DNA of 64,000 nucleotides from Antedon mediterranea (lineage: Eukaryota > Animalia > Echinodermata): NCBI RefSeq assembly GCF_964355755.1, contig NC_092678.1, positions 17,873,365 through 17,937,364 of the forward strand. Direction: 5' to 3'. Below the pieces are notes generated by a model. That model was not told where the DNA came from, did not search any database, and worked only from the letters and a program-made list of their open reading frames with translations. Both the position numbers and the translations under genes were made by a program. Of the stretch, positions 32,217 through 63,400 are shown in pieces. Numbering within the stretch: position 1 is the stretch's first letter; every line of letters begins with the position of its first letter.

Positions 32217-35200
32217 ATGTTTCGAGCTTTGTATGACTATCAAAGTAAAGATGGGAAGTCTATGAACTTTCAGAAAGGGCAACGGTTTACCTTGCTTGAC
32301 AAAAGCAACGGTCATTGGTGGCAAGTTATGTCCGATCAGTCCGGTACGGTAGGATACGTACCGGCGAATTATGTCACAAAAGATGAGGTAAGGACGGTCT
32401 GTTGTCGTGCAGTATGATGGATGGATGGAAGTGGGATGTGTTTGGCCTAGCTAGCTAGCCTAGCTACATGAAGATCTATAGGTCTAAAGAAATTGGCTAT
32501 GAATCTAGACCAGGGAGAGAAGTGACTGCCCTGCTGCATCATAGCCTAGGCCTTCTTTCTCTATTTATCAAACATTTAATCACATGGATAGAAATTGAAA
32601 CACAGCATGCGTGCGATGTAGGGGAGGGCCTATCTAGGCCTAGGCGGCCAGGCTAGGCCTACTGTAGGCGACCAGGCTAGGCTGTATCTACTAGGTCTAG
32701 GCCTAGAGACTAATAGGGCCTAGGCCTAGCTAGGTAGGCTCATGACACAAATGTATTGCTTTTGTCTACGATCATGTAAAAACCGTAAAATATAACGAAA
32801 ATGATTAGGCCTAGATCAGTGGTAGGTTTTTAGTCGCGTGGACACTATGTCGGTCGGTCTGTCAGTTTGTCTGTCGGTCTGTCTGTCGGTCCGGTATCAC
32901 TATGCATTGTATTGTAGCACGCGACTTAATGGCTGTTGGCCTTGTTTATAAAAAAAAAGGATCCAGCACATCTTCTATAATCTTAATGCACTTGTTTGTT
33001 TGTTTTATCTTTATACTGGGTGACCTCTTCAGTCAAAGACTGATCTCCCAGAGGGCCCAGTTGGTGATCAGTGGCTGTGATGTACTAATACACCGGGGTA
33101 ACCCCCTACTCGTCTCGAAAGATGTACTAGGTTCTTTAAAGTGCACACGAGCAAGTTGTGTACACTGGACCTACGGTTTATAGTCCTTATCCGAGAAGAC
33201 TCGTTCTACCACCAGAACCATGGAGTGAGTGAGCCTCGAACCCCTGCCGATGTTATGGCTACGTGATTACGGTTCCACTGTCTTAACCGCTCGGCCACTC
33301 ACTCACTTGTCAATTGTATGACCCACTATACGACCTCCGGGCGAGGTGTGTCATTTGTCCAAAGTATGCACCCGTGTGTAAAAAAATATGTATTACCTTT
33401 AGGTGACCATGACGCACTGTGACCATGTTGTTTATTATATGGTGGGTGGTAGAGTGACATTGACACACCATTGTCCATTGATATGATGTACCATCTAGGT
33501 TTTTTGATGCATTCTTGTGTCAATAATTATTTGTAAATGACGCACTTCTCCTGGGGGTCGTATAGTGGGTCATTTTGACAATGTGCATAATTGTCTGATG
33601 TGCGTCATTTAACATATTAAGAACATTACCTTGTTGGTTATAATATAGTGGGTGAGTGGTAGAGTGACATACATTGAAAATGCCATTGTTTATTGATGTA
33701 ACCTACCATTTAGGTTTTTTGTTGCACCCCTGCGTCAATAATTATTTGTAAATGATGCACCCATAACGCACCTCTCCCGGGAGTCGTATTGTGAGTCATT
33801 CGATTGAAAAGGTGCATTACACAAAATGTAATGTTCGTAATTATGGTATACTGTAGGTGCACGCCTACTAAAAGCACATTTAGTATTAATAAATGTTATT
33901 ATTTTATATTTAAATTTTATACCATTTTTTTAAACAACTAACATTGGAAGTTATCAATTACACCAGTCACCTGTGTGATGTGCCCAAATATGGTAATGAC
34001 ATGCCCAAATATGGTAGTGATATGCCCAAATATGGTAATGACATGCCCAAATATGGTAGTGATATGCCCAAATATGGTAGTGATATGCCCAATATGGTAG
34101 TAATATGCCCAAATATGGAAGTGATATGCCCAAATATGGTAGTGATATGCCCAAATATGGTAGTGATATGACATCGTCATGTCCATATATGGGCAACATT
34201 ACATTTAATTACATAAACGTATTGCTATGTGTAATAATAAATAAAAAATAAGTGGCTTTTGTTATTTTGAATCTTTATTTTTAACGTTATTTTATATTTT
34301 TTGTTGTTGTAGGATGCATGCATGTAAGAACTTATCAGATTTTGTAAATCCATAGTGCGTGGTTTTGTTACATTTTTTGGAATAAAGTAACCTATATACA
34401 TATATATGTGTAATAATACATCATTGATGGATGGACGTTTGAGATGATGTACAGTGAACCATTCCAATGTTGTGTTGTAACATAAGTGATCATGTTCGTT
34501 GTGTGTGTTTAAATGCAGGTTTACATACTGTGTGTTAATTTATAATTACCAACTTTGTCCTTAAGCTCTGTCTACACTAGATGTGACAAAAAAAATGTGA
34601 TGCGCCCAAATAAGGTATTCCCAAATGTGGTAGTGATATGACATCATCGTATCCATATATGGGCACATCACACTTTTTTTGTCACATAAAGTTTGAACTT
34701 TATAATCTAATTTCATTATTAGGGATGTACATATGATTTCAGAACCATCGCGAGATTAAGGATATTGATGCATGCACTAATTTTATAGTAACCCTAACCC
34801 TTATTGTAATCGAAGCATGAGGCAGTATTAAAGCATTTCTTCTTAAAAGCAAAAGTTTATTAAAGCCTAGTTATGAACCAGCTCGATTTGTGTGCCATTT
34901 CAAAGTGATTTTTAATGAAACATGCATTTTGTACAAACACATGTGATGATCACACATTTGTCATGCATTTATCAAGTCTATGCATGACTATTTTGTATAC
35001 TATTTGAGAGGAAATTCATTCAAATTTATTAAAAATATAAAACTGTTAAAAAAATCTGGAATAAAATACAATGGCGCGGTGGTGTTGTTATCATCTATGG
35101 CCGCCACAACAGTTTACATGCAAATCCGACCAGCCCTCTTTCTTGCACACGCTTGTTGAAACAAAAATGAAGAAAAAATCTAAAAGTGCCATTGTCTAGA

Positions 35201-41200: not shown

Positions 41201-44200
41201 TCTTTTATCTGAAATAATTTCTAGACAATTCAATTTTTATTTTGTCCTTGACCAGCACCTATTATCCATAATTGTCTCCCTTTGCCCAGGAGTATAAATG
41301 GCTACTAACATTCAGGATGTTGGTTTTATTTATTTGTATCTTTACATGATAGTTATTCCTTAGAGAAGAAATTAATTGTTTTATAATGTAATGTTTTGTT
41401 GAATGCAGGAAGTTAATACTATTATAATAAGTTGGTGTACTCACTGTTCTGTACTTGTGTCTGGTTTTGAGTACATAGTTTTAAAGATAAGAATTACTAT
41501 ATTGGTAATGTTTTATTTTCGGTTGCGATAAAATCAACTTCTGGTACTTTAAAGGAGCGCTACTATCTATACTGTTCTGTACTTGTGTCTGATTTTGAGA
41601 CGTATATATAATAGTTTAAAGATAAGGATTACTATATTGGCTATGTTTTATTTTCGGTTGCAATAAAATCAACTTCTTGTATTTAAAAGGAGCGCTACTA
41701 TCTATACTGTTCTGTACTTGTGTCTAATTTTGAGACGTATATATAATAGTTTAAAGATAAGGATTACTATATTGGCTATGTTTTATTTTCGGTTGCAATA
41801 AAATCAACTTCTTGTATTTAAAAGGAGCGCTACTATCTATACTGTTCTGTACTTGTGTCTAATTTTGAGACGTATATATAATAGTTTAAAGATAAGGATT
41901 ACTATATTGGCTATGTTTTATTTTCGGTTGCAATAAAATCAACTTCTTGTACTTTAAAGGAACGCTACTATCTATGCTGTTCTGTACTTGTGTCTGATTT
42001 TGAGACGTATAATATAATAGTTAAAAGATAAGGGTTACTATATTGAGCATGTTTTATTTTGGTTGCGATAAAATCAACTTCTGGTACTTTAAAGGAGCGC
42101 TACTATATATACTGTTCTGTACTTGTGTCTGATTTTGAGATGTATATATAATAGTTTAAAGATAAGGATTACTATATTGATCATGTTTTATTTTGGTTGC
42201 GATAAAATCAACTTCTTGTACTTAAAAGGAACGCTACTATCTATACTGTTCTGTACTTGTGTCTAATTTTGAGACGTATAATATAATAGTTAAAAGATAA
42301 GCGGGTTACTATATTGGTCATGTTTTATTTTTGTTTGCGATAAAATTAACTTCTTGTACTTAAAAGGAGCTCTATTCTCTATGCTTTTGATGATATAGGT
42401 GGTTTTTTATATCAAGCACATTATTTAGTAAATGAAATAAATGACTAAATCTAGAAACAGCGAAGTAACTATATCTTTTTAAAGTTTACAGTAATTATTC
42501 TAATCCAAAAATATATAATATAATATCTATGGCAAAATTTTAGATGGATATAAACCAAAAAAAAAACAAAAAACAGTGCTAGCATTGAAACATCGATCCT
42601 TTTAAATACAGTAGAGATACACTGTTGTAGCTTCATTTCCTTATTCTTTAACCTTGATAAAAATAATTCTTGGATATTAAATGTTTGCTCAATTCCTCTT
42701 CACTTTGTGGTTACTAACACTTGAGGATATACAGTAACTACTTAAAAATTCTTCCTTGCAATTTTCCAATAAAAAAAAAAACAAAATGTACTTCAAATAG
42801 TTATTGAAACTTCTTCTCTAACTTAATAAATAAAGAGGTTTACACCGGGCAAATGGGCCCGTATTCATTAAAGGTGATCAATTTTAATCCTGGACATATT
42901 TTATGATTTGAAATATCATTTTGAAATTTTAATTTTTCATTTTTATAATTTAAATAAATACCTAATTAAAAGCTATAGTTACATTGTTGCCCACTAATAT
43001 AAGTAACAAAAATATTACACCAAAACAATTCCCAGACCGGGAATCCTAAGGATCAATTTTTGGAAATAAGGTTGTCACTCAGATATTAGGTAAATTTCTG
43101 AGATTTGTAGCTTATTCCATAATTATATAACTATATAAACAAAATAAGTTCAAAAATTATGAAATTTAGCTAACAACTCATAAATATGCATGATATGGTA
43201 ATGACTTCCACACAGAGAAGATCCTATCTGTCTCCAATATTAATAAAGCGCCAATTGCTCATTTTGTAAGTGGAGATATGATTTATTTATGTTTTCTATC
43301 TCTCCTCCATTTCCTCCTAGGAAACAAGGACAAGTATACGGCTTCTGTTACTAAAGGTTTTTGGCTGTATATGTTCGTTAGACATGTTCGCCCTCTCTTA
43401 TCTGCTGACGTCGGTGCTACCGGTTGAGATTGCTCGTGATACGATGACTGACACAAAAAATATCCAAAAACTCTGCTTCTCTGCTCTAGTACTTACAATG
43501 TTATTTTCACAAGGGGAATCAATCCCATATACGCACTATGGTTAGATTTTTTCTGTGTTTTTTTGTGGTTTTTTTTAACTATATTTTAATGAGGGTAATC
43601 CATCTAGCAATTGCTTATCATTTGTGACCCTTACAGGTTCACAAGACAAACATATGCACAAGATGCTCTACAAAAACAAAGTCTTATGACAAGTCTTTGG
43701 GAGTGGGGTTGTAATTTTGTCTGATATGTGACAGGACTTGAACCCAGGACCCTTAGTAGCCAAGCATCATAACTACCAAGCCACAATTCCACTTCTAATA
43801 TCTTATTAACAAGTTATATTTGATGGGGTCTTTGTGATAAAAAACTTTTAGTTTTCTTTCATACAGTAACTTAATTATGGTATTGTATATATCACATACT
43901 TATGGACAAATTTATTTTGATGTACTATTACTAATAAATACTTGGTGGAAACTTTGAAATCCTGGATCTACCTCTGGAATGCAGTCTTTTATTCTACTTT
44001 TTGGTAAACTACTGATTTAATATAAATCAATTACAGTATTATCAAATCAATTATTGTCTTTTAGAATAATATTGATTTTTTTTTAAATGATTTCTCTTCT
44101 TTTTTTTTAGATCAGTTGAATGTGGAGTTTGTAAATTATTTATTGAATTCGATTGAGAATCCACCAGTCAATGATGAGGATGAGCAAACTCCTGATCTGT

Positions 44201-47200
44201 TTGTTAATGTCATTCTTGCTTTCAATCTACAGTTTCGAAGTAAGTCAACAAGTTTGTTGTTTTTTTGCTATAATGTTTTTTGTTTAGTTTTTTTTTTAAT
44301 CATAAATAATCAATTTTCTTTTTATTTTGGTTCTGTTGTACAATCCCATCATCTTCCTATAAATGTGTTAAGCTCTGTCTACACTTTGTGACTAAAAAAT
44401 GTGATTTGCTCATATATGGACACGATGACATCACCACTACCATATTTGATTATTTAAACTATCAACGTAGTTTGGCATATTATCAGCAAATTTTAATGCA
44501 ATTATTAGTCAGTTTCAAAACTGTAAAAATTCACTTTCAGTTTTTAAATATTACAGAAAAACAATGGATACAATAATGTTGCAGTTTTCAATTATCAATT
44601 TGTAATGTGTCAATCAGGCATATTTTTTTCATTGTTTTGTTGAAGGTTATTCAGCTATGCTACACTGGTGAAAAGGTCTGTAGTCCAATGTTAATAATAA
44701 TAATAATATTCGTTCTTATAGCGCTTATTGTACAATGCTTCTAAGCTCTTCACATTATATAATACAGCTTTACCACGTTGAAACACCGGTTCTCGTCAGA
44801 TCACCGAAGTTAAGCAACGTTCGGCCTGGTTAGAGCTTGGATGGGGGACCATCTGGGAATATTGGGTGCTGTATATGGAGCTGGGGTCCTGTTAGGCATT
44901 TGAAATCAGCACTGCTGACTCTTATGGCAGCCCCTGCATCTAGTATCTGCCTCAGATATATTGGCTTATGCCTTTCCTTTAGTCAAGGTGGGCACTGGAT
45001 GAGAGAAGCCCTTATTTTTATTTTTTTATTTATTTCCAAACCCAACCAACAGCAAAATAAATTCGCCAATAACAGGATCATCAATGATTTATCAATGTTA
45101 GGACCAATCAAGGTGCGTTAAACAGTCCTGGCTTTGTTTTTATCAAACCTGTTTTAGTGGCGGTAATTATCGCTGTTGGTTTCGATTGAATACTCCGGTG
45201 ATTTTTTTTTTAATCAAAAACTTATGAAAACATACTCCCATAATGCAGATACAGTAGTATGTAAACAGCAAATAAGTTGTGTCTTAATCTAACATATACA
45301 CCTGGGTGGAGAGACGGAAGCGCAAGTAATCTAAGCAATGCGACGAGAATTGGATTTGAAATCACGATCACTAATCCAACGTCCAACACACTGCGCCACG
45401 CGCCCTCACGTGTAGACGAAAACAACATTTTTCACTTGTAGTTGTACTGTGCTTTTTTGGGGTTTGAATAGCCTACTGGATAGAATCAACATATTTTGTT
45501 TTATGAAAAGAAATTTACTCCCAATAATATTTTAATTTATTGTACAAATCAGAGTATAGTTAATTACTGCAGTAAGAGCCTATTATTTATTTAGCTAACT
45601 ACAATTGATGTTGATAATGGAAACCACTGTGTTTAATCTGTAGTGTAATAAAAAAAAAACTGTAATATGAGGCATTTTTATTTTCAATAATTTTGTTTGT
45701 GTGTTTAGTTCCAGCTGAAAATCCAGTAGTGAAAGCTTTTAGTGACAACTCAAATGTGAAATATTTTACTGAGAAATTTATGCTACTAATCAATAGGGAA
45801 GGTGAGTTGATCAATTGATTGTTATTGATAATTACAAATTGTTGTTTACCTTCGGTATTGATTGTGCGATCATTCAATAAATCGGGTCAAAAAGAGGTCA
45901 CCATTTAAAACATTGCACTATGGCTCAGAGGTTATCTAGAGATTATGGGTTTAAGCTCTGGTTGGTCACGACAGTGTTGACTGCTTGAGCAAGATTTTTT
46001 ATCCACATGGTTCCTCCTCTCCCACCCATGCGACATAAATGGCTGTGTATAAAAAATCACTGGGAGGGAAATTGTTTTTACCATAATTAATGAGGGTGAT
46101 CCATCCAGCAATTGCTGATCATTAGGGACCCTTAGAGGTTCACAAGACACTCATACAAGATGCACTACATAAACAAAGTCTTATTACAAGTCTTTGGGAG
46201 CGGAGTCCTGACATGTGACGGGACCCAGGACCCTTGGAGTGGTAGCCAAGCATCATAACCACTAAGCCACAACTCCACTCAAAAATGCACTCCACTTTAC
46301 TTATCACTTTAAATACAAATTATTTATCGAAGTTTAATTAAGTTTAATAATTTTATAATTATTTTATTTTTATGAGTGCAAATTGGAACAGAAGTTTTTT
46401 TTTTTTAAATAGATGATCCTATATCCATGTTTGACTTTGAACCTAAGCCACAGAATTCTATGGTGAAGTTTTTAGCTGACATCTTCTCATCAACAGAAAC
46501 ATCAAATATTTTCTACACAAATGATATGAGGGTGCTGATAGATATTGTCATACGACAACTGACGGACTTAAATCCTGGAGACAAGGTACAGTAAACTACC
46601 ATACCATTGAAGTGTTATTAGGATGACTCTGCGATTGGCTAGAGCGTAGACTCTAATCTTATAGTAGCAGTTCAAAAAGGGATTCTCCATAGCCCTTTTC
46701 ACATCGAAATTGCAGCAATACCGCAGTAAGCAAGCCGGTATTGTTGCCGGTCTAGACAGACACACAGCAGGTAAAATTGCGGTAATCTTACTGTGAAAAA
46801 CACAACATATTGCCATCTTTAAAGGGTCTTACACAGCTGTTCCGGCACGGTTCCAGTCCGGCGCTGGCAAATCCAATCGAACGTCAATGTTTCGTTTTTA
46901 CACGGCAACGCACATATCGATTGCCGCCGCGTGGAGTATTGTGAACGAAACATTGGCTTTCGATTCGCCGAACCGGAACCGTGCTGAAACAGGTTTGAAA
47001 GGCCCTTAAGAATAGAGACTCGCACTTTTTTGTAAAAAGAATGGCAGGCAACGGCAACGAACATGCCATGCATGCATGTGGCCGCTGCTTTTGGGTCAAT
47101 CGTTATTTTTTATTGCTGCATATAAACTATATTTAAATTGCTGTACATACACTAAACTACATACACAGACACCACTCCACGCTAATAGTTTTCCTGACGT

Positions 47201-48747: not shown

Positions 48748-49458
48748 AAGCTTGGTTCCCACTAGCGACTCAACCTCCGCAAGTGCCCTTCCGATAATTG
48801 TGTGTGCCTCCGCCTGCGTGAAATCAAACCTGCTTATTGCGCGTCAACGTTAGCATGCCGTAAACCTTGACCTGGTTCACCCCGCGTAGTTTTGGATACG
48901 GTCTGTACTATGTTTCAAGTGTTCTTTTGCCTTGCGTTGTTGTATGAAATCCAACTGATTTTATTTGGCGATATTTGCGGCACAGTGTTACACACGTCGT
49001 CGGTTCCACCAATACGGCACTTTGCGTAATTACGTCGCTATGTTAAAACTTGGTTCCCACTAGCGACGCAACCTACGCAACGTATGGAAATGCCTTTCAA
49101 ATAGTTGTGCTTATTCCCCCGCCTGCGTGAAATCAAACCTGCGATGTTTCCAGCACTGTTGCGTCGTCGGTTCCCACTTGTGATTATGCAATACTGCACT
49201 TTGCGTCAATACGTCGTAAGCTTGGTTCCCACTAGCGACGCAACCTACGCAATATAAGCAAATGCCCTTCCAATAATTGGGTTTGCCCCCGCCTGCGTGA
49301 AATCAAACCTGCGATGTTTGCAGCACTGTTGCGTTGTCAGTTCCCACTTGTGATTACGCAATACGGCACTTTGCGTCAATACGTCGCTGCGTTGCGTTCT
49401 AGTGGGAACCACGCTTTAGAGTTGCGTTACGTTGTGTCGCTAGTAGGAACCACGCTTA
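48748..49458. repeat. Tandem/nested copies of a MITE with TIR AAGCTTGGTTCCCACTAG; related cluster at 31010-31578
   Basis: CTTGGTTCCCACTAGCGAC recurs at ~48751, 49049 and 49221; closes with CTAGTGGGAACCACGCTT. Confidence 0.75.
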
Positions 49459-52940: not shown

Positions 52941-55900
52941 TCAAACATGTTGTATTTGTGTGAAATTGTTTAAACTGGATGAAAGATATTGGATGTAGTG
53001 TGGTGGTGGCGTAAACATTACTTTTGATTTGCCGTAAGCCTGACAATTATTTAGTCCTTGTGGTGGATAGACATTTGACACTGGCCAACATGGCATGCCA
53101 TCCCGAATCAACACATGCACTGGAACTTTCCGAGGTAACATCGGTATTTTCTCAAACGATTCTTCTCGTAGAGATTTCTTCAACTTGTAGCGACGATTCT
53201 GAAACCAGATTTTCACTTGTGTAGGAGTCAGACGAATGAGATGAGCCAGACGGTGACGTTCCAGTGGTGATAAATATTGGTTTTGATGAAAGTGCCTCTC
53301 TAGTTCGTAAGTCTGTGCTTTTGTAAAAACTCTTCGTAGTTTTCGTTTTTTCAGTAATCTTTCTAATGCTTCGAAATGAGATTTCTTTTCTAAAAAGCGA
53401 AACAAATTATTATTGAATTATTATAACATGCAAATTTAAGAATACCATAAATAAGAGTAAGATTATACTAACAACGAACGAACGATTATTTCTTTATATT
53501 TATGTTCGAAAAGAGGTAAAATATCATTTGTGTTGTTTAAAAAGTAAAAATCGAATTTTTTATTGATAAGGAAAAAAAGCAGAGAGATAATGGAGCGGAA
53601 TCCCTGAAAATACAATATTGTAAACTTGATTTAGGCCTACTTGTTACATGTTAGGCAATCTTGTAATACGGTTATTAATGTGTAGGCCTCTGTATGACTC
53701 GATGACTGTATGATTAGAGTAAATTGAGTGAATGAATGTCTGTAATAACGGGTTAGGTATTAAAGTAAGCAACTGAAGTTATACATAGTTTGATACGACG
53801 AAAAACGTTCCCTCATTTTATGAATATTGAAAGAACTACATTCAAAGTTGTAAATCTTGGTTTATTTCTATAATTTTTACTTGATGGTATATAAAGTTGG
53901 TTCCTACTTTCCGTACTGATTTTAACCATCTGATGTAACCCTGTTTACTAATTAAATTGAGTTAGGTAATTAGTTATTGACGATTAAAGTGCTAGTGCCA
54001 CACTTTCGACAAATACGACATTTACTATTATCAGTATCAAGAATAATATATGTAGATACTGTGTTAAATTGAGTTTCAATAATAAAGTGTTATATATATG
54101 AAAAAAAAAGCAATATGTGTGTCGTTATTTGGTCACGAAATGTTACCTTTCGACATTTGTATGTGACGTCACAGCCAGAACACCGACGATCGCGAGGAGG
54201 AACTAACCTGCATCTTGCGCCTTATAACACACCCCGCGGCGATCACAACAAGCTTACTGAATATTTGTTATGGATTCCGAAAGCGATTTAGAAAGTGTTT
54301 CATCAGATAGACCAAGTAGTAGTAGTTCATCATCAAGTGATGAGGAAAATGGTACTGGCCTTATAATACCATATAATTTCGAACCACGTTTTGAGGAACA
54401 TGAATTACAAGACATTGATGAAGAAGCCCAAGGTGAAGATGTTGACATGATGGCTGCACGCCTGGATAATTTAGAATGGTAGGTGTTCCCCCGTTGTGGT
54501 TGTTGTAGTGAAGCGTCTGCTTGATTGGGCTAGGCCTAATTAATCAATCGAAGCTAGAGCTACCTCAGTGTTTCTAAATTCTAAATATACAATCGGTTTT
54601 TTTTTCAAATTTTGTGAGATGCCATACGTTAATATAAAGTCCCCATCGTAATTTGTTTGATGATTATTATTAGATGGGTCGGATTTGGGACGGTGGTTTA
54701 ATAATAATAGGCTACTCCTTGCTTGGCTTGGGTTTGGTTATAATAATAGATGGACTAGGCCTAAAGTATTAATATTAATATTCTGGTCATAGTTCAAATG
54801 GGCATTTGAATTTCACTTGATTGAGTGACTGCTGATATGATCAACTAATTATAATCATAATAATTAATTTTATAATGACTAAATACATGTTTTCATCTTG
54901 TTCAGGTGTTCCTGTGAACATTGCCAAATCATGGGCTCAGGGGAAGAGTGCATCTGCTGCAAGGAGTGCGAAAACACAAGTGCTAAACTTGAAGACAATG
55001 TCAATCTGTTCAACAATGATGCTCCATTCTCCTGCATCACAAATCATCCAGGTTTCAAGTCTGTTGCTCTTGACCCTTGGGTGCTGGAAGTAGCATGGCT
55101 TTCGTATAAGCAACACTATGATAAGAAAGTTATCTATAACGGACCAAAAAACAAAAAGTACCGTCACATATCGTACAGACAGTATGCCCGATGGATACAT
55201 GGATATGTCGGAAAAAATATCCGTATAGTGCTTCCGTCTTGTGTTGTCTCTTGCATAAGAGCACATTTCCCACCACCTGGAGATGACCCAGTGTTTACAG
55301 GATTTAAATTACCCGACCTAAATTAAAACAGCCATAGCAGCATTTTAATTTTCTTATACTATTTAGTATTAGTTTAATAATTTTTTGAAATTAAATAAAG
55401 TACAGTAATAATTTATACAATTTGCAACTCATTTTGATTTTATTGCTTCTCTCACTCATATACATCTCCAATACATTGTTATTGGGGAAAAAATGAAATA
55501 GTCTGAAAATACAGTACATTGTGGATATTTCAACAATTTTATTATGTCTACAATAATATGCTGTGTTCAATTCATTTATATGATTAATAAACATGGTGTC
55601 AAGTTATTACTGGTTTTTAAACCGGCTTGTATGTTGGGCAACTGCAGCACTTTTTTCAGGTCTTTCAAATGCTGCGCACAATGATGGTGGTATGGTCTCT
55701 GTAAATGCATCTAGATTTGGTTCCATAACAACCTCAAGAAGACTCTTGAACAACTCATCAACATAATTATATGTACATTCTGTTAAAAGTTTTTTAACAA
55801 TGTAACCCCCTTTCTTGTACTTGGGAAATGATATTACGTATTGCTTTTCTCCAGCCTTATTTACCATTTGTTCTCTGGTACTGTTCTCATTATAGTGAAG

Positions 55901-58900
55901 AGCAGCTATGAAAAGTCGACTCTTCATTCCACTATATGAAAAGTGGAACATTTTAGGAGCAAAATGATTAATAAGGCTATGGTACCCTTCCACTGATGAC
56001 GTTTGCCCATGAGGTGAAGAATTGCGAATGTCCTTCACCAACATTTTGGTTTCAACAAATTTTTGTAAGGCATCACAAGCTTCAGTATCAGCAGTCAACC
56101 ACTTTGTTAACCGTTGGTCTGAAGGAGACATTACCGGATGGGCACATTCCGTATATGGTTCAGGATGTCCAGTATGAAGATTTTGTACATGTCTTACCAC
56201 AGACTTCCACTTTGCTTCAATGATATCTTTTTCATCAATGTTGGTGGACATTACACACCAGTAATAATGGTTAGAAATAGATTTTTGCCAATTACCTAAA
56301 AGGTTACACGATTTTTTTGTTGATATGGCCTGGATCTTTTTCTTAATACTTTTTGCAATGTGCCAGCAGTCAAAATAATGCTTAATGTCTGGAAAATTAT
56401 CCCTTAAATATTTTTGTAGTTGTCTATGTCTATCGGAAACAATTGTACTTATATTTACTTTGAAATCTTTAAAGACATCCAATGTTTTTTGTAGACCCTT
56501 AAGTTCCATATGATAAGATGATTTAACATCACTACTCTGAACTAATTCAACATTCAAAATCTTATTTTCGGTCAAGTCAACTGATGTGTATGAACCATAT
56601 TTTGCACTGTGGCCCATACTGTCACAGCGTCCATCTACGCCAATAGAAATATCCTTGCCCTGTAATTCAGCAAAGTGCTTATCCCTTTTAGAAAACCAAT
56701 TATTCCTTACAACTCTGTGCAAGAAATTTTGTTGGTGACGGAAAAAAGTACGTTTACTAATGGCGCTCACATTTATACTTTTTAGCGCTCTTAAAAATTG
56801 TGTGGGTGTTGAGCCAGAAAAAAGAATAGCCCCACTTAGTAGAATGTTACCCATTGGGGTACCTCTAGCTTCTGGCTGACTTTTCCACTCGCGGTTAGTG
56901 TGGCAACATAAGCATCTTATGTTTGCAATAAGCATGCTTCCCTTGTTACGACAACATACTTGAACTTTACTGGAAAAACAGGAAAGGCATATAGAAAGTA
57001 GCATCAGTAGGTGATTGTGAAAAACAATGTATTTTGGCTGTCTATGTGCATCCCCATTAAATCCTTTCATCTCATCATCTTCCATCTCTGTATCCTCACC
57101 ATCTGAAACCGATACATCCTCTTCCGGTCGATAATCTGAATCGCTATCATCTTCTGTCGACTCATCAAAATCTTCATCATCTTCATCAGACGATTGTTCT
57201 TTGTATGTTGGTTTGGCTTTTTTGGGTGCCACGACTTTAGCTTTGCTCATTTTTCGTCGCCGAACACGTTTTCTTTGCTTTCGTGTCTGTGTGCCTCTGG
57301 ACACCATAAGAGGCTTATCGCATACACTTGCCAGCTCCTGTTCATCCTCTTCCTCATCCTCTGTTCCAGTAATAAGCTCCCTGATCACTCCCGCCTTTTC
57401 TCTTTTAACAAATGCTGACCTGTTGGAATGAATATTAATACTATTAATAAATAAATATCAGACAAACCTAAACATTTTTTCTTTTATTTATTGAATCTAT
57501 TACACTAACCTCTGTGCTGTACACTCTTTGGCCACCTGACCACCATCGTCGGATGTCTCCCTCACAACATGTATTGTTGGTACCGCTGTTTTGGCATTCA
57601 GTAAAAGCCTAAAAGTAGTGAGGAAACCGTTGTCTAGTTAATATTAAGGGCAAAATAACGTAAGCAATATAATTATAATATAGTTGTTAGTTCCCACTTA
57701 CACCGACAGGACATTCTCCTACTGAGCATAATAGTGTAGGCATTGACTAACCTCCATCATGTTTGTACAGCATTCAGTAGTACTAATTAGGCCTGGCTAG
57801 GCTAGCCCTTATCCCATTATTATTAATGTAATAAGCCAAATACATAACAACTAGGTTAGGCCTAGTTGAGTTATCTGTGTGGTGTAGGCAAAACTGTTAC
57901 TATTACTTATTAATTATGTTAAGTTTATTTAAAGATAAACCAACATAAAGTAAATACTATACATATATATCAGGCGGAGCAACTGTACTCTGTATGTATG
58001 TACAGTAGTTTTAATGTTACTGCAAATTATGTGCCGGTGTAAGATTTAAATGTGTCCGGTGTTTGAAAGTGTCCACTGGACAATTTTCAGCATTGAATAG
58101 TGTAATACCAGCTGTTGAAAATGGCTGCAACCACCCGGGCAGCTTTCATCGATAAAAAAAGTAGGACCATCGACATCGACATCATAATATTAACCCCGTA
58201 AAAACTAGGGCACTGGACGGTCACCAACTCCCGTTAGGGTAATTATAATTCCTTAGAATACCAACTTGAATCGCAAAATATCAAGTCGATTGAAATAAAT
58301 ATTACTATTATTATATCTGGAGACATATAGTCTAATCAAATTAAATTGTTTGTTTTTGATTGAGTATATACAACCTGTTGTCAATTTGAAGTAAATCGAC
58401 AACTTGAAAAAATATATGGCCTACCGGTACTGTATTATTATTTCTAGGGAATGAATATCACTAAATCATATAGGCATAGGGCCTACCTATTTTCGTTCTC
58501 TCGAAATATTATTTCATTGGAATTCGAATTACTAATTCGCGAGAGAACGAAATAATTTCCCTCGAAATTATTTCGTTCTCTCGATCATTCCTTGTCTCGA
58601 AGTAGTAATTCGTTTTTTATATTGTTCAGTTCTTGAAATCTTATTTTGTTCTCCCTAAATATATTTGTTCCCTCAAAATATTTTTCAGTTCTCAAAATAT
58701 TATTTTGTAATATTCATAATACTGTTACTAATTTAATAATATTAACTGATAACAAAAGTGCTTTAAACAAGTAAGTTCGTCATTGTTAAAGTGAGTTCTT
58801 TTTCATTATATTTTTTTTCACAGATGCCTGATTTTTGGTTTTATTTAATAAAACATTGAATTGGTTAGTCACAATATTTTTTTTGTTTCTAGAGATTTTA

Positions 58901-61900
58901 CATTATTTATTTATTTATCTAAAATACATTTGAAAAATATTGTTGATGCATATTACCAAAAAATATTTATTTTTTTATATTTTATATGGCAAAATAAACA
59001 CCTTAATTGCGCATCATAATTATTCGTTCACTCAAGGGTATTTCGGTTTTTTGTATTTTTTGAATAATCTCTAAAAAAAAAACGTCCACCTCTCCTAAGG
59101 GACCACTTCTCATAATTCCGTAACGACCACCTTTCGCAAATTACCACCTCTATTGAGGTGGTCACTTACGGGAGGTGTAGTAGGTAAAAGAAGTGGTCGT
59201 CTACGAGCGGTGGTAGTTTATGAAAGCAGTCCGTTATGAGAGGTGGTTACCCCTTCAGGAGGTTGTCCATTGTGAGAAGCGGTCCTTTAACAGAGGTAGT
59301 CCCTTTTAAATATTAAAGGTGGTCGCTAACAAGGGTGGTTGCTTACGATCAGAGTGCTAAGTTTTGAAAGCCGATCACTTACGAGAGGTGGATAGACTGA
59401 CGGCAAGTAGAGAAATACATTTGCACATGATTTAGACATTTAGGTTTGTAAAATATATAATATTTTATTAGCTGGCGATATTAACTACATTAGCTGTGAG
59501 GCAATTTTCGTTACTACATTACCTGTTGAGTTGTACATGAGTATAATGTTGATTTTTATTTGATAAATAAGCTGTTGGTGTTTCTACATCATTAGCTAGT
59601 TCTAGGTTTTATTATATGGGTGGATTTGACTTTTCTACACTAGCAGTTTTGAACAGGGCCTACTGTGTTTAAATGGAATGCTACAAGTTGTATTATATTT
59701 TTTTATTTATCGTTTTGTGTACTAAAGTGGCAGCATAATCAGTATTTATTTTTACCAGATGTCCAACAAGGGTAATGTCCCAATTGGTAATTGCCACAAT
59801 TGTCAGGTCAACCTCAAAACAGCGGCTCTCGGGACCGGGAGAGTTGTATGATTTGTTTTTATTTTTTTTTTTTTTTGAATGCGCCTTGAGCACTCTGTGG
59901 TATGTGCGCTATAAAAATCCTGTTATTATTATTTGTTATTATTATTTCACCTTTTAGTCGTGTCTGTCTTACAGTAAAGTGATCTTTAATTGGAAGAGGA
60001 CCAGTACAATTACTTGTTTTTAATCACATGATTATAAACTATTTATTCCTCTTGTCTGTGCTCGTACAAAATAATAAAACGGTCGCTAATTGGAAGTGTC
60101 TTAAAGTAAAGTGATCTTTAATTGGAAGAGGACCAGTACAATTACTTGTTTTTTATCACATGATTATAAACTATTTATTCCTCTTGTCTGTACTCATACA
60201 AAATAATAAAACGGTCGCTAAATGGAAGTGTTTAAATTGAAGTGATCTTTAATTGGAAGAGGACCAGTACAATTACTTGTTTTTTATCACATGATTATAA
60301 ACTATTTCTTCTTCTTGTCTTTATTCATACAAAATAATATAACGGTCGCTAATTAGAGGTGTCTTAAAGTAAAGTGACCTTTAATTGGAAGCGGACCAGT
60401 ACATTTACTTAATTTTGTCACATAATTAAACTATTAATTATTCTTACCTTTACTCATACCAATTAATAAAAATGGTCGCTAATTAGAGGTGTCTTAAAGT
60501 AAAGTGATCTTTAATTGGAAGCGGACCAGTACAGTTACTTAATTTTGTCACATAATTAAAACTATTAATTATTATTGTCTTTACTCATACCAATTAATAA
60601 AATGGTCGCTAATTGGAGGTGTTTTAAGTAAAGTGGTCCTTTATTGAAAGAGGTCCAGTACAATTACTTGTTTTTTGTCACATAATTAATAACTATTATT
60701 ATATTCTTCTTGCTTTATTAATACTAAATAATATAATGGTCGCTAATTGGAGGTGTTTTAGGTAAAGTGATTTTTAATTGGAAGAGGAACACTTCATTTA
60801 CTTGTTTTTGTCACATACTTAACAATTATTTATTCTTCTTGTCTTTTCACATACCATATAATATAATGGTCCCTAATTGGAGGTGTTTAGGCAAAGCGAT
60901 CTTTATTTAGAAAAAAAAAATTTGTTTGGCATCATTAAGTATTATTGGTTATTAAAAAAAGACAAGACAAGTGCAGGCGTGGTAAAAACAACCACCTATC
61001 ATAAAACGTATGATACAGTATTTAATAGTGGACGCATTTCAATCCATGGGTCAGACATTATTAAACGGGCCGGACAGCATTAAATTGTTGAAAAACGCCC
61101 ACGAACCCGTTGAAACATGCAACTGGACACTATCCAATGCTGAAAAGTGTCCACCCGGACACTTTTGAATGCTGGACACAATTCAATCTTACACCGGCGC
61201 GCCTAGAAGCTAGGCTTGGCCCAGCGGGCCCAGCAGGCCTAACAATAGCGACGGCGAACGTATTTTATGCAGTTTTTGTTGAAGGTAAAATATTAAAAGT
61301 AAATTCATCTAATTAACAAATACTTACTTTGTAGCTAGACCAGCTTTGAATTGACCCATGTTTGTAAATGAATCGTCTGAAAAATGCTTAAAACAGAGCA
61401 CTGATCGAGCTGTGGGTTTCCATTTATCGCGTTTTGTACGTACAAATCGCGTCCATTGCCTGGCGATGGAACTGTCCTTTGGCCACCGAAACAATAAGTT
61501 ATTTTCATGATCACAATTCGCAGCAACACAGCGAGAAGGCATATTGATTTATTATAATAGATAAATAAAAAAGTAGCTGACAATAATAATAGTTGAAAAT
61601 AACAATTAGTACCAGTAGAAAGCAGTATACAGTATATATTATTAGTAGTAAACCAGCGTCTCATGCATGCACGTGTGTTGTTTTAAAAGGCGGAAGTAGA
61701 ATGTCTTCTGCCTGTGACGTCACGCTTATAAAGTACGAGGGCATATTAACGTTCCTAATTAAGAGGCGATTACGGCCATACCGTTAAAAGTAGGTCAATG
61801 CAAATTTCGGTCAAGATTTATAGACATTAAGTCTACCCAAAAAATCATTAATATCTTAATTTAAAGGCTGTGGCACTAGCACTTTAAAACGAATTTAGGT

Positions 61901-63400
61901 TCAACGATTTGCCCCAAATAGGGGTGTTTTCCGATCGTGGTATACACTGTCTAATGGATGTCCATCTTGAAAAATACCCGCCACAAAAATACGAGGAGGC
62001 TTCGCATTTTCCTATCTCCTTCTACGATAATTGTTTTTAATAGCTGAAAACCGGTTGAACAGCTAGAGTACAGCATCATAATGTTGAAGACAGGCCTACT
62101 TTCTTCAAAAATACTATTTTGATATATTTAATATACGATTATACAAATGTATTGATTTGCGATGAATGGAACATTCCAATCTCTGTTTCACAAGTGTCTA
62201 TTCCCTCAGGCGTCGTAAAGGCAAGTACAGTACTGTATACTCAAAATTCGATCCATTTTTGTTTTCAATCTGTGCTGCAGAGGTTGGATATAATTTTTTT
62301 TTAAACGGATAATGAGCTAGCGTTTTCACTCGCCGTATATTATGTACAAATCTTTATTATTGCAGTTAAACCACCCACATCATCACCTTTCCCTCACTGG
62401 CATGAGTAGCGTTGTAAAACCAGTAGAGAATAGGCCTACGGTACATCACATGCCCTAAACGCAGAACAACTTTGGTGGGTAGGGTAGAAACCAACTTAAG
62501 TATGAATTGGCTCTAAGAAACAATTGAAAACCATTAGGCCTACTAATTAAGTTGAGTTAGATAATTTAATATTTATTGACGATTAAATCGAATTTATGGT
62601 TTTACATTGTATTATAAACATATACACGTCGTAGTGATGTATCGTTACATGTGCTGTACTATTTCAATCGACTAGGACGGTGATAGCTTCAACAAAGTAT
62701 TACATCGCAATGTTTTACTGTGTTTAGTGGTATATTATTTGTAAAACATGAAAGCAATTAATATTTCGTTACTAAATGGATAAAGAATAATATTTTAACA
62801 TTGTTCCTCTTTGCACCCATCCTCTTCCCCATCTCAACCCTAATGTTACATACAAAACACAAATTAAGTTTGTTTAAATTTGACTTAAACAATTGGTCTT
62901 ATAGGGTGCTAATTTTAGTTGAGTACATAAATCACAGTGTCTATTTATTCGTTCCTGTAAACGACATGTATTATTGTCCTGCGGTACGTACATTTGAAAT
63001 CGCCAGTTTTTTAACGCTGAAATTATTATGTATTCGAGAACCATCTGTGGGCACGACCTAGATGGTACGCGAGCGAAGCGAGCGTACCATCTAGTTTTAA
63101 AAATTCATGGCAGTTGTAATGGTTGAATTAAACCATAGTCAATATAGGCCTATACTTTCAAAATCTTCAGCGTTGGTGCAAAATTAATTAATTATGGATT
63201 ATTTTTAATTTCCTAATTGAATTTTGTGCTTTAACGGATGTACTATCCGAAATAAAAGAAAGGAATGAATTAATTTATATAATTAGAAGTATCTTACCGT
63301 TAACCGGCGCACCAGCACTAACAACATTCGCCGCCGAAGCGCTCTCAGGTTCTCCGATGATATCATTGATAGAAAAGCCGATTGACTGTTTCGTCATCAT
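52941..63400 (-). CDS. NK2-class homeobox protein, divergent Nkx2.2-like, 2 exons, 183 aa
   Basis: Exon 1 63400-63298 [18 protein letters not shown]... (TN/eh1 motif FSINDII; phase 1 donor gtaaga). Exon 2 53389-52941 (acceptor tttag) has homeodomain [17 protein letters not shown]...[20 protein letters not shown] (Tyr54) and NK2-specific domain [16 protein letters not shown]. An extra small exon cannot be excluded. Confidence 0.88.
54164..54171. promoter_or_regulatory. CRE/ATF palindrome upstream of the KolX-like gene
   Basis: TGACGTCA within TGTGACGTCACA, ~100 bp upstream of ATG 54270. Confidence 0.4.
54270..55326 (+). CDS. KolX-like accessory protein: P2X7 C-terminal ballast / Zn-cluster-like domain, 2 exons, 209 aa
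   Basis: Exon 1 54270-54478 (acidic, PYNFEP, ends TG|gtaggt) + exon 2 54906-55326 (cag|G) gives WCSCEHC...ECICCKE...CITNHPGF...[17 protein letters not shown]...[15 protein letters not shown]...FTGFK. Confidence 0.88.
55607..61542 (-). CDS. THAP-domain DDE transposase (Kolobok type), 3 exons, 708 aa, intact
   Basis: Exon 1 61542-61328 THAP (CVAANC..FRWP..W....W.P....LCFKHF). Exon 2 57608-57510 supplies the THAP AVPTI box. Exon 3 57419-55607 has an acidic linker, a Cys/His cluster (CLSC..CLCCH), and catalytic motifs [32 protein letters not shown]. Both junctions are phase 2, canonical GT-AG. Confidence 0.9.
58033..61198. mobile_element. Non-autonomous TIR element nested in transposase intron 1
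   Basis: Imperfect ~75-bp inverted repeats: GCCGGTGTAAGATTtAAaTGTGTCC...TTTTCAGCATTGaATAGTGT from 58033 and its complement ending ...AATCTTACACCGGC at 61198; no clear TSD. Confidence 0.7.
59974..60912. repeat. Tandem repeat, ~131-bp unit, ~7 copies plus a partial
   Basis: Motif AAAGTGATCTTTAATTGGAAGAGGACCAGTACAATTACTTG recurs near 59976, 60108, 60240, 60371, 60501, 60630, 60764 and 60893. Confidence 0.9.
61715..61722. promoter_or_regulatory. CRE/ATF palindrome upstream of the transposase
   Basis: TGACGTCA within GTGACGTCAC, ~175 bp upstream of ATG 61542; ETS-like GGCGGAAGT adjacent at ~61689. Confidence 0.4.
63058..63094 (+). mobile_element. Helitron-like 3' terminal hairpin
   Basis: CTAGATGGTACGC-gagcgaagcga-GCGTACCATCTAG|T, 13-bp stem ending CTAG before T. 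Confidence 0.45.

What the first reader, a model, noticed from the sequence alone, without database searches (positions are those of the whole stretch)
54270..55326. Transposon-borne stand-alone P2X7 ballast (Zn cluster / guanine nucleotide-binding) domain
The protein aligns by eye with the cytoplasmic C-terminus of vertebrate P2X7: WCxCxxC..ExxCC Zn cluster, CIT..F, RHxxYRxYxxWxxG, LPSC...IRxxFP and terminal (Y/F)xGFK. It has no transmembrane helices or ATP-binding ectodomain. In P2X7 this domain binds two Zn ions and GDP/GTP, and the RH, Y, IR and GFK motifs I recall as lining that pocket are retained. Inference: the accessory protein may be a GTP/GDP-sensing regulator of transposition, and elements like this may be the source of the P2X7/Nanor ballast domain. 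The KolX-ballast link may already be noted in the TE literature, but its function is open.
Basis: partly seen in the sequence, partly recalled or inferred. Interest (0 to 1): 0.72.

Follow-up and report, generated by a model that had tools for sequence, protein, structure and literature searches.

The report
Kolobok transposon's ballast-fold helper gene
This is the small zinc-cluster helper gene (KolX) of an intact, recently copied cut-and-paste transposon; its kinship with the tail of the vertebrate P2X7 receptor is real but was published in 2022, and the protein likely works as a partner of the transposon's own transposase, with GTP/GDP binding possible but untested.

Summary
Observation confirmed. 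54270-55326 is a two-exon, 209-aa gene whose product matches Pfam P2RX7_C. Among 48,161 solved chains its model matches only P2X7 (Z 11.4; next 2.7). It lies inside an intact Kolobok (Kol0) transposon, 53988-61883, with TTAA duplications, 15-bp AG..CT inverted ends and a convergent 708-aa THAP-DDE transposase. So it is KolX. The KolX-ballast link and the P2X7/Nanor origin are in Kojima & Bao 2022; GDP-residue conservation was discussed by Rump 2020; this scan noted the link 21 times in at least 7 other genomes.

All seven zinc cysteines are kept, but only 3 of 5 named GDP residues (R574 and K583 are lost family-wide). P2X7 binds GTP and GDP equally, so a GTP/GDP switch is unlikely.

New here:
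- 40 of 47 informative relatives sit opposite a transposase.
- KolX is under purifying selection.
- A KolX-transposase complex prediction passed weakly (0.42, best control 0.01; such passes are more often wrong than right unless likely beforehand).

Likely role: transposase partner subunit, perhaps holding a guanine nucleotide as the P-element transposase does. New member of a known kind.

The parts
53988..61883 (.). Whole Kolobok (Kol0) element, 7,896 bp (about 4,736 bp without the nested insertion)
   Evidence: contigs of other copies break off at these ends
53984..53987 (.). Left TTAA target-site duplication
   Evidence: the empty form with a single TTAA joining the two flanks is seen as loose ends in 12 X1 and 16 X6 contigs and from the other side in all 4 runs
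53988..54002 (+). Left terminal inverted repeat, 15 bp, begins AG (5'-RR)
   Evidence: perfect inverted match, the longest between the two flanking regions searched
54164..54171 (.). Subterminal TGACGTCA palindrome upstream of KolX (mirror of 61715-61722)
54270..54478 (+). KolX exon 1: acidic, low-confidence N-terminus with a conserved P-Y-x-F-E-P motif (residues 34-39) and a helix
54479..54905 (+). KolX intron, 427 nt, GT..AG
   Evidence: skipped in contigs of X5 and X10
54906..55326 (+). KolX exon 2: ballast domain (C71, C73, C76, C87, C88, C113, C182; R156, H157, Y160, R176, R188)
55607..57419 (-). Transposase exon 3: RNase H-type core, D367, D434, DCWH 455-458, E582
57510..57608 (-). Transposase exon 2
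   Evidence: three-exon model identical to P0303, 708 aa; intron 2 skipped in an X5 contig
58038..61193 (.). Nested 3,156-bp insertion in transposase intron 1: TGTAA..TTACA ends, CCGG duplicated (58034-58037, 61194-61197), Ginger1-type ends; holds a 131-132-bp x 7.2 tandem array (59969-60912)
   Evidence: absent from what appear to be single contigs in X5 and X6 (same length and depth, complementary ranges)
61328..61542 (-). Transposase exon 1: THAP domain
61715..61722 (.). Subterminal TGACGTCA palindrome upstream of the transposase gene
61869..61883 (-). Right terminal inverted repeat, 15 bp, element ends CT (YY-3')
61884..61887 (.). Right TTAA target-site duplication

Best explanation
This gene is KolX, the second gene of an intact, young Kolobok (Kol0) cut-and-paste transposon, and its ballast-fold protein likely works as a zinc-stabilised partner subunit of the element's own transposase. 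Shown: the element, the two inward-facing genes, the fold, the seven cysteines, the linkage to a transposase across families, and purifying selection on KolX. Inferred: (1) two zinc ions hold the domain together, as in P2X7 (about 0.9); (2) KolX docks on the transposase (about 0.55); (3) its pocket (R156, H157, Y160, R188, plus the KolX-specific R176) holds a guanine nucleotide, probably less tightly than in mammalian P2X7 and without telling GTP from GDP (about 0.4); (4) that nucleotide acts as a bound cofactor that helps pair or position the purine-starting ends, as GTP does in the P-element transposase (about 0.15-0.2). The identification as KolX is about 0.97 sure; the confidence given is for the partner-subunit role.
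For: Element and genes. Youth: the identical KolX protein is on 5 contigs under at least 4 accessions, and both frames and both ends are intact. Linkage: of the 80 metagenome loci kept (best of 131 confirmed), 47 have at least 1 kb downstream, and 40 of these 47 carry a related transposase on the opposite strand; 13 of 15 sequence groups at 90% identity do. Selection: dN/dS median 0.16, under 0.5 in 23 of 23 usable pairs (pairs not independent, only intact frames used). Complex prediction, transposase 228-708 with KolX 28-209: weak support, score 0.42 against a best control of 0.01; runs share at least 87% of contacts; partner pLDDT at least 69. The mark was reached by 51 of 78 solved and 2 of 108 mismatched pairs, but at 0.60 or under by only 5 of those 78 and by all 4 mismatches that passed (of 180). 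On eukaryotes it was reached by 39 of 65 solved pairs with no like complex and 2 of 126 unrelated pairs. Precedent: transposase-accessory binding in MuDR, PIF/Harbinger and CACTA (PMC12973397 passages). P-element transposase shares THAP and C/DxxH, is a close fold neighbour (6p5a, E 2.7e-4) and needs GTP, without hydrolysis, to position the DNA end (PMC7776569 passages). Pocket: R546 kept in 121 of 127, R578 in 118 of 126, Y550 in 122 of 127.
Against: The complex pass is weak; the tool rates such passes more often wrong than right unless likely beforehand. It gave no interface, did not use my alignments, carried ligands unlike its calibration, and left out transposase residues 1-227. Two of five named GDP residues are absent family-wide (R574: R in 1 of 127; K583: K/R in 0 of 125), and H547 is His in only 68 of 127 (Tyr in 39). 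In P2X7 the cavity includes a helix from the neighbouring subunit (PMC9859053 passage). Many Kolobok lineages have no KolX or carry unrelated nucleases or helicases, so it is not needed by Kolobok transposases in general. The conserved arginines may simply be structural or bind DNA. 7 of 47 informative loci lack a detectable neighbouring transposase.
Confidence: 0.52

Rival explanations
1. KolX acts on the host and not on the transposase: it would be an anti-silencing, chromatin-tethering or transcription-helping protein that raises the element's expression or steers insertion through host partners, perhaps by its acidic N-terminus and P-Y-x-F-E-P motif.
For: Selection and linkage fit this equally well. 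The N-terminal motif is conserved (P34 72 of 80, P39 72 of 82). Transposon accessory proteins that evade silencing exist (VANDAL). Nanor was proposed to act in transcription. The domain has been reused by hosts (P2X7, Nanor).
Against: The weak but control-beating complex score with the transposase core (0.42 against 0.01, with the caveats above).
Confidence: 0.22
2. The pocket does not hold a free nucleotide: it would grip a terminal or flipped-out purine, or the backbone, of transposon-end or target DNA (or RNA), making KolX a nucleic-acid-end-binding factor like the accessory enzymes of other Kolobok lineages.
For: In P2X7 the base and ribose are buried and the phosphates exposed, a pose that leaves room for a chain. 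Residues 150-209 are basic (pI 9.9). A Gly-x-x-x-Arg motif (G172 116 of 127, R176 118 of 127) is fixed in KolX but not in P2X7 (D562, F566). The accessory genes of KolobokD, E, P and H encode nucleases or a helicase. TTAA-targeting piggyBacs carry the cysteine-free C-terminal half.
Against: No DNA-binding test was possible. This reading is not exclusive of the partner-subunit reading.
Confidence: 0.15
3. One reading: KolX would be a GTP/GDP sensor that switches transposition on or off with the cell's guanine-nucleotide state.
For: Three of five GDP residues kept. GDP stabilises the human ballast domain (Kd 2.6 uM, melting point 43.3 to 51.0 C; PMC9574498).
Against: GTP and GDP are reported to bind P2X7 with equal affinity. 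R574 and K583 equivalents are lost in the family.
Confidence: 0.08
4. The gene is a captured or domesticated host gene that rides in the element with no role in its spread.
For: 7 of 47 informative loci lack a detectable transposase neighbour. Domesticated copies exist (Nanor, P2X7).
Against: The same convergent arrangement in 13 of 15 groups, purifying selection between element families, and a multi-copy family with intact ends here.
Confidence: 0.03

Closest known systems
KolX of the Kol0 (Kolobok0) lineage of Kolobok transposons, type family Kolobok-1_XT (Kojima & Bao 2022, PMC9587614; passages, sections 3 and 10, supplement searches seen; Figure S6 is a picture and was not seen)
   Same: TTAA duplication, RR..YY ends, DDE transposase with C/DxxH, second gene with the ballast fold and seven cysteines; the transposase core is colinear by eye with the Kolobok-1_XT and -1_BF rows of their Data S5.
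   Different: A crinoid-labelled family ('Antedon' has 0 hits in that paper's supplements; Repbase itself was not searched); this copy carries a nested Ginger1-type insertion. That paper proposes no function for KolX and never mentions GDP.
Cytoplasmic ballast domain of vertebrate P2X7 (Pfam PF20478; PDB 6U9V, 9E3M)
   Same: Fold (Z 10.6-12.1, about 30% identity over 116-126 residues); seven cysteines; R546, H547, Y550, L569, R578, G590-F591.
   Different: No channel, no transmembrane helix, no C-cys anchor. R574 is Val, K583 is Pro, A567 is Ile, F566 is Arg, D562 is Gly. It has an acidic N-terminus with a P-Y-x-F-E-P motif.
Nanor and invertebrate 'ZCD' proteins, PANTHER PTHR36981 (Rump et al. 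2020, PMC7016195; passages and section 11 seen)
   Same: Short stand-alone ballast proteins that keep R546/H547/R578 and lack R574/K583; that paper already suggests they may bind GDP.
   Different: That paper did not recognise them as transposon genes ('transpos' 0 hits).
Drosophila P-element transposase with its GTP-binding insertion domain (PMC7776569 passages; PDB 6P5A)
   Same: THAP plus DDE with C/DxxH; a fold neighbour of this transposase; uses a guanine nucleotide without hydrolysis.
   Different: There the GTP site is inside the transposase; here it would be a separate gene. The likeness is one of possible function only.
Two-gene transposons whose accessory protein binds the transposase: MuDR (MURA-MURB), PIF/Harbinger, CACTA (PMC12973397 passages)
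   Same: Transposase plus a small accessory gene within one element.
   Different: Their accessory proteins are not ballast proteins by any search here; binding is shown there and only weakly predicted here.

Membership tests
Kolobok superfamily | TTAA target-site duplication | tested here: met
   TTAA at 53984-53987 and 61884-61887; empty form with one TTAA in other copies of the host repeat
Kolobok superfamily | Termini 5'-RR and YY-3' (piggyBac differs) | tested here: met
   AG...CT within 15-bp perfect inverted repeats
Kolobok superfamily | DDD/E transposase with C/DxxH | tested here: met
   D367, D434, DCWH 455-458, E582, conserved in at least 90% of 94 aligned sequences; best fold hits ISCth4, then P-element transposase. 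The catalytic role is inferred.
Kolobok superfamily | Zinc-finger motif between C/DxxH and the last E (all but Kolobok1) | tested here: met
   H489, H515, H520, C530, H532 nearly invariant in that interval; which of them bind zinc is not determined
Kol0 (Kolobok0) lineage | Second gene encoding KolX with the ballast fold | tested here: met
Kol0 (Kolobok0) lineage | Transposase falls in the Kol0 clade | tested here: inconclusive
   Only a by-eye comparison with the Kolobok-1_XT and -1_BF rows; no tree with the reference set was built
P2X7 ballast domain (PF20478) | Profile match above the curated cut-off | tested here: met
   60 bits against a cut-off of 23.5
P2X7 ballast domain (PF20478) | Seven cysteines of the two-zinc site | tested here: met
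   C71/73/76/87/88/113/182 align to rat C477/479/482/498/499/506/572 (counted); each Cys in 94 of 95 to 126 of 127 sequences. That these are the seven ligands is recalled; the count of seven is.
P2X7 ballast domain (PF20478) | Full mammalian GDP motif R546, H547, R574, R578, K583 | tested here: not met
   3 of 5 kept here; 62 of 124 relatives keep the three, 0 of 124 keep all five. Fish P2X7 also lacks two.
P2X7 ballast domain (PF20478) | Binds GDP/GTP and zinc | not testable with these tools
   Ligands rode along but are not scored
P2X7 ballast domain (PF20478) | Trimer in solution | not tested
P2X receptor | Two transmembrane helices and an ATP-binding ectodomain | tested here: not met
   209 aa, only PF20478 found, highest hydropathy window 1.15
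P-element GTP-binding insertion domain | Shared fold with KolX | tested here: inconclusive
   See Tried and rejected

The most novel reading that the evidence does not exclude
KolX is a separately encoded GTP-holding subunit of the Kolobok transpososome: it docks on the transposase and presents a guanine nucleotide to the purine-starting DNA end, doing in trans what the P-element transposase does with its inserted domain. The unexplained GDP/GTP site of the inflammation receptor P2X7 would then be a relic of a transposition cofactor. I found this in no paper (searches; 'Kolobok' has 0 hits in the P-element review; 'GDP' has 0 hits in the KolX paper and its supplements), though an earlier first-stage note of this scan named a GDP-GTP cofactor role.
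Probability: 0.17. Interest if true: 0.8.

Novelty: new member of a known kind. Interest (0 to 1): 0.36.

Why it matters
The homology and the evolutionary story are in print, so they are not news. What is open is the job of KolX and of the P2X7 GDP/zinc site. This copy is a good tool for that question: both frames are intact, the ends are perfect, the family is young, and the element is only about 4.7 kb without its nested insertion. A KolX knockout in a transposition assay plus a nucleotide-binding measurement would settle what the ancestral ballast domain does, and could show a second, independent use of GTP in DNA transposition.

Tried and rejected
1. Whole-genome copy count: no genome is held. 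Contig depth inside the element is about ten times that of the unique flank in X1 (about 420-460 against 42), but the tool warns this is no copy number, so I use only the protein accessions.
2. Expression: no RNA holder listed; X5 is an RNA guess and also holds unspliced and terminal sequence. Host exon 1 (63298-63397) has no cover in X5, which says nothing either way about the chimeric model P0306.
3. Fusion ('Rosetta stone') evidence: five long models join a MULE transposase to a ballast domain (P0267, P0310-P0313), and two join THAP to one (P0216, P0280). None of the 9 long proteins tested matches the Kolobok transposase profile, and P0310 holds the KolX N-terminus twice around the MULE part. 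I read them as likely chimeric gene models and do not use them. The 'longer' search covered only 458-2000 aa and returned no P2X7, so no tree of P2X7 against KolX was built.
4. Homology of KolX to the P-element GTP domain or to any nuclease: none is listed at Z>=5 or E<3; absence from these lists does not exclude it.
5. Solved relatives of the transposase by sequence: none better than E 0.25, so memory of a like complex is an unlikely cause of the weak pass.
6. Viral contigs: 0 of 62 pattern matches confirmed. Prokaryote genomes: 2 of 9 confirmed, one a 658-bp MAG contig that is probably animal DNA, the other marginal and with no KolX match.
7. TTAA-flanked ends in relatives: 7 of 29 loci examined, in 3 families; most contigs are too short to hold both ends.
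8. piggyBac or MuDR identity: rejected; the ends are RR..YY with TTAA, and the Pfam MULE score (22 bits) is under its cut-off of 27.6.
9. McCarthy 2019 (the P2X7 structure paper) is not held; GDP residues come from Rump 2020, Durner 2023 and a review.
10. A word search of earlier findings for a KolX-transposase complex result gave 0; a place search near this window gave 0.

Full report
1. The observation. The interval holds a two-exon gene on the + strand: exon 1 54270-54478, a 427-nt GT..AG intron, exon 2 54906-55326, giving 209 aa. The product is identical to database protein P0035, found on 5 contigs under at least 4 accessions labelled Antedon mediterranea, a crinoid, and differs by one residue from P0001. 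Contigs from 2 of 4 runs laid skip exactly this intron (X5, only guessed to be RNA, and X10, another organism); their shorter sides are 27 and 30 letters, under the tool's 31-letter mark, so this is supporting and not conclusive. The match to P2X7 is formal, not only by eye: Pfam P2RX7_C E 3.7e-16; phmmer of exon 2 hits four P2X7 sequences at E 6e-5 to 7e-4; a profile of 127 relatives hits the same four at E 1e-19 to 5e-18 and nothing else at E<=1. The AlphaFold model (pLDDT 87.5, pTM 0.76) has P2X7 as its top 14 Foldseek hits, with the next at E 3.1, Z 10.6-12.1 on re-alignment, and as the only match with Z>=5 among 48,161 chains (Z 11.4, rmsd 3.5, 116 aligned; next 2.7). There is no transmembrane segment.

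2. The element. A perfect 15-bp inverted repeat starting AG at 53988 and ending CT at 61883 is flanked by TTAA on both sides. The flanks are the two halves of a very high-copy host repeat. Its other copies show the uninterrupted form with a single TTAA (loose ends in 12 X1 and 16 X6 contigs; in 25, 33, 13 and 3 contigs of X1, X6, X5 and X10 from the other side), so the TTAA was duplicated on insertion. On the - strand, three exons (61542-61328, 57608-57510, 57419-55607) give a stop-free 708-aa protein identical to P0303. It has a THAP domain and D367, D434, DCWH and E582, conserved in 94 aligned sequences. Its model's best matches are the ISCth4 transposase (E 3e-7), then the P-element transposase (E 2.7e-4), with Hermes close behind. 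TTAA, RR..YY ends, C/DxxH and a KolX gene define Kolobok and its Kol0 lineage. Intron 1 holds a 3,156-bp insertion with TGTAA..TTACA ends and a CCGG duplication, the Ginger1 signature. It is missing from what appear to be single contigs in X5 and X6, so the plain element is about 4.7 kb.

3. What is already known. Kojima & Bao 2022 (PMC9587614) state that KolX adopts the ballast fold, that P2X7 arose by fusion of a P2X4-like gene with KolX, and that Nanor is a domesticated KolX (passages; abstract, sections 3 and 10; supplement look-ups; Figure S6 is a picture and may mark residues I could not see). Rump et al. 2020 (PMC7016195) list the rat GDP residues R546, H547, R574, R578 and K583, note that sea urchin and acorn worm proteins keep only R546, H547 and R578, and suggest they may still bind GDP (passages; section 11). 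The scan has met the same link 21 times in at least 7 other genomes.

4. The pocket. Counting along the rat alignment, the seven cysteines are all kept and are 98-100% conserved in the family. Of the five GDP residues, R546=R156 (121 of 127), H547=H157 (68 of 127; Tyr in 39) and R578=R188 (118 of 126) are kept. R574 is V184 (Arg in 1 of 127) and K583 is P193 (Lys/Arg in 0 of 125; this site borders an indel, but the next column also has 0 of 119). Of 124 sequences with all five columns filled, 62 keep the three and none keeps all five. A567 and L569, also named as GDP contacts (PMC9859053 passages), are I177 and L179. The K of GFK is not among the residues named in the papers I read and is variable (32 of 122). 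KolX has its own fixed residues next to the pocket, G172 (116 of 127) and R176 (118 of 127), where P2X7 has Asp and Phe; whether R176 replaces a lost phosphate contact could not be read from the tools. P2X7 is reported to bind GTP and GDP equally, with the base buried and the phosphates exposed (review PMC9248971 passages). The isolated human domain binds GDP at 2.6 uM and is trimeric (PMC9574498, parts 1-2 of 4). This makes binding plausible and a GTP/GDP switch unlikely.

5. Is KolX part of the machine? A metagenome scan confirmed 131 loci and kept the best 80. Of these, 47 have at least 1 kb downstream, and 40 of the 47 carry a related transposase on the opposite strand. Of the 33 shorter ones, 4 do, 1 has a same-strand hit upstream and 28 have none. 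The 47 fall into 15 groups at 90% identity, 13 with the convergent transposase. Of 58 loci with a long match, 40 have intact frames; with the window these give 31 distinct sequences and 23 pairs in a usable range, with median dN/dS 0.16 and all 23 under 0.5 (not independent, and biased by keeping intact frames). The one complex job (transposase 228-708, KolX 28-209, GTP and two zinc riding along) gave weak support: 0.42 against a best control of 0.01, at least 87% shared contacts, partner pLDDT at least 69. The mark was reached by 51 of 78 solved and 2 of 108 mismatched pairs, but at 0.60 or under by only 5 of those 78 and by all 4 mismatches that passed (of 180); on eukaryotes by 39 of 65 solved pairs without a like complex and 2 of 126 unrelated pairs. 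My alignments were not used, the job is unlike the calibration, and no interface was given. The guess was moderately likely beforehand, since accessory proteins of MuDR, PIF/Harbinger and CACTA bind their transposases (PMC12973397 passages), so I put binding a little above even odds.

6. Mechanism. Most likely KolX is a zinc-stabilised partner subunit of the transposase (0.52). The bolder extension rests on the P element, whose THAP-DDE transposase needs GTP without hydrolysis, held in an inserted domain against the terminal base (PMC7776569 passages). Kol0 elements might supply such a site in trans (0.17). Rivals are a host-directed role (0.22), a DNA-end-gripping pocket (0.15, compatible with the partner role), a true GTP/GDP switch (0.08) and a passenger (0.03). 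No step beyond fold, linkage and selection is shown.

7. Verdict. A real, well-preserved member of a described family. The homology is published; the function is open and testable with this element. Novelty: new member of a known kind. Interest 0.36.

Noticed in passing
window 52941-53389 and 63298-63397 (- strand): The element sits in what appears to be the intron of an NK2-type homeobox gene (best PDB match vnd/NK-2, E 1e-23). Its short first exon has an F-S-I-x-D-I-I stretch like the eh1/TN co-repressor motif (motif name recalled; no Pfam hit). By the splice positions the two exons would join in frame.
   Followed up: partly
window 63397-63298 joined to 57633-57510 and 57419-55607 (- strand): Database model P0306 (678 aa) is exactly host exon 1 spliced in frame into transposase exon 2 through an upstream acceptor: a predicted repressor-motif/transposase chimera without THAP. 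It may be a gene-prediction artefact; no transcript evidence either way.
   Followed up: partly
window 54164-54171 and 61715-61722; L019 1512/6644; L032 2259/7419: TGACGTCA lies 160-200 nt inside both ends of this element (2 of only 3 sites in 64 kb) and of two other families, but not at both ends of the L042/L043 family. It could be a CRE/ATF-like promoter site for the two inward-facing genes, or a transposase or host bZIP site.
   Followed up: partly
window 53984-61887 against run X6 (organism B): A second organism holds the element at about 98-99% identity (5 differences in 666, 17 in 867), while its best homeobox-exon contig is about 89% identical and much of the non-coding flank does not lay. 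This hints at horizontal transfer or introgression, but that contig may be a paralogue.
   Followed up: no
window 58038-61193: Nested Ginger1-type element with no long ORF; it contains a 131-132-bp x 7.2 tandem array (59969-60912) and short internal inverted repeats.
   Followed up: partly
window about 53862-53987 and 61888-63100: The target is a very high-copy host repeat (summed contig depth above 100,000 in X1 and X6); 61888-63100 looks like a mosaic of several such repeats.
   Followed up: no
window 44065-44250 and 46409-46594 (+ strand): Exons of a SPIN90/NCKIPSD-like gene (Pfam SPIN90_LRD, E 2.8e-16 for the second; no hit for the first).
   Followed up: no
window 48748-49458: Cluster of three to four related 170-bp repeat units with inverted ends, MITE-like.
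   Followed up: no
window 6039-8983 and 33109-33201: A 2.9-kb segment with long inverted ends (at least 6039-6284 against 8740-8983) and a related copy near 33,150: another probable DNA transposon.
   Followed up: no
window 54369-54386 (KolX residues 34-39): A P-Y-x-F-E-P motif conserved in the otherwise variable acidic N-terminus of KolX relatives, outside the region that aligns to P2X7; a candidate docking motif.
   Followed up: no
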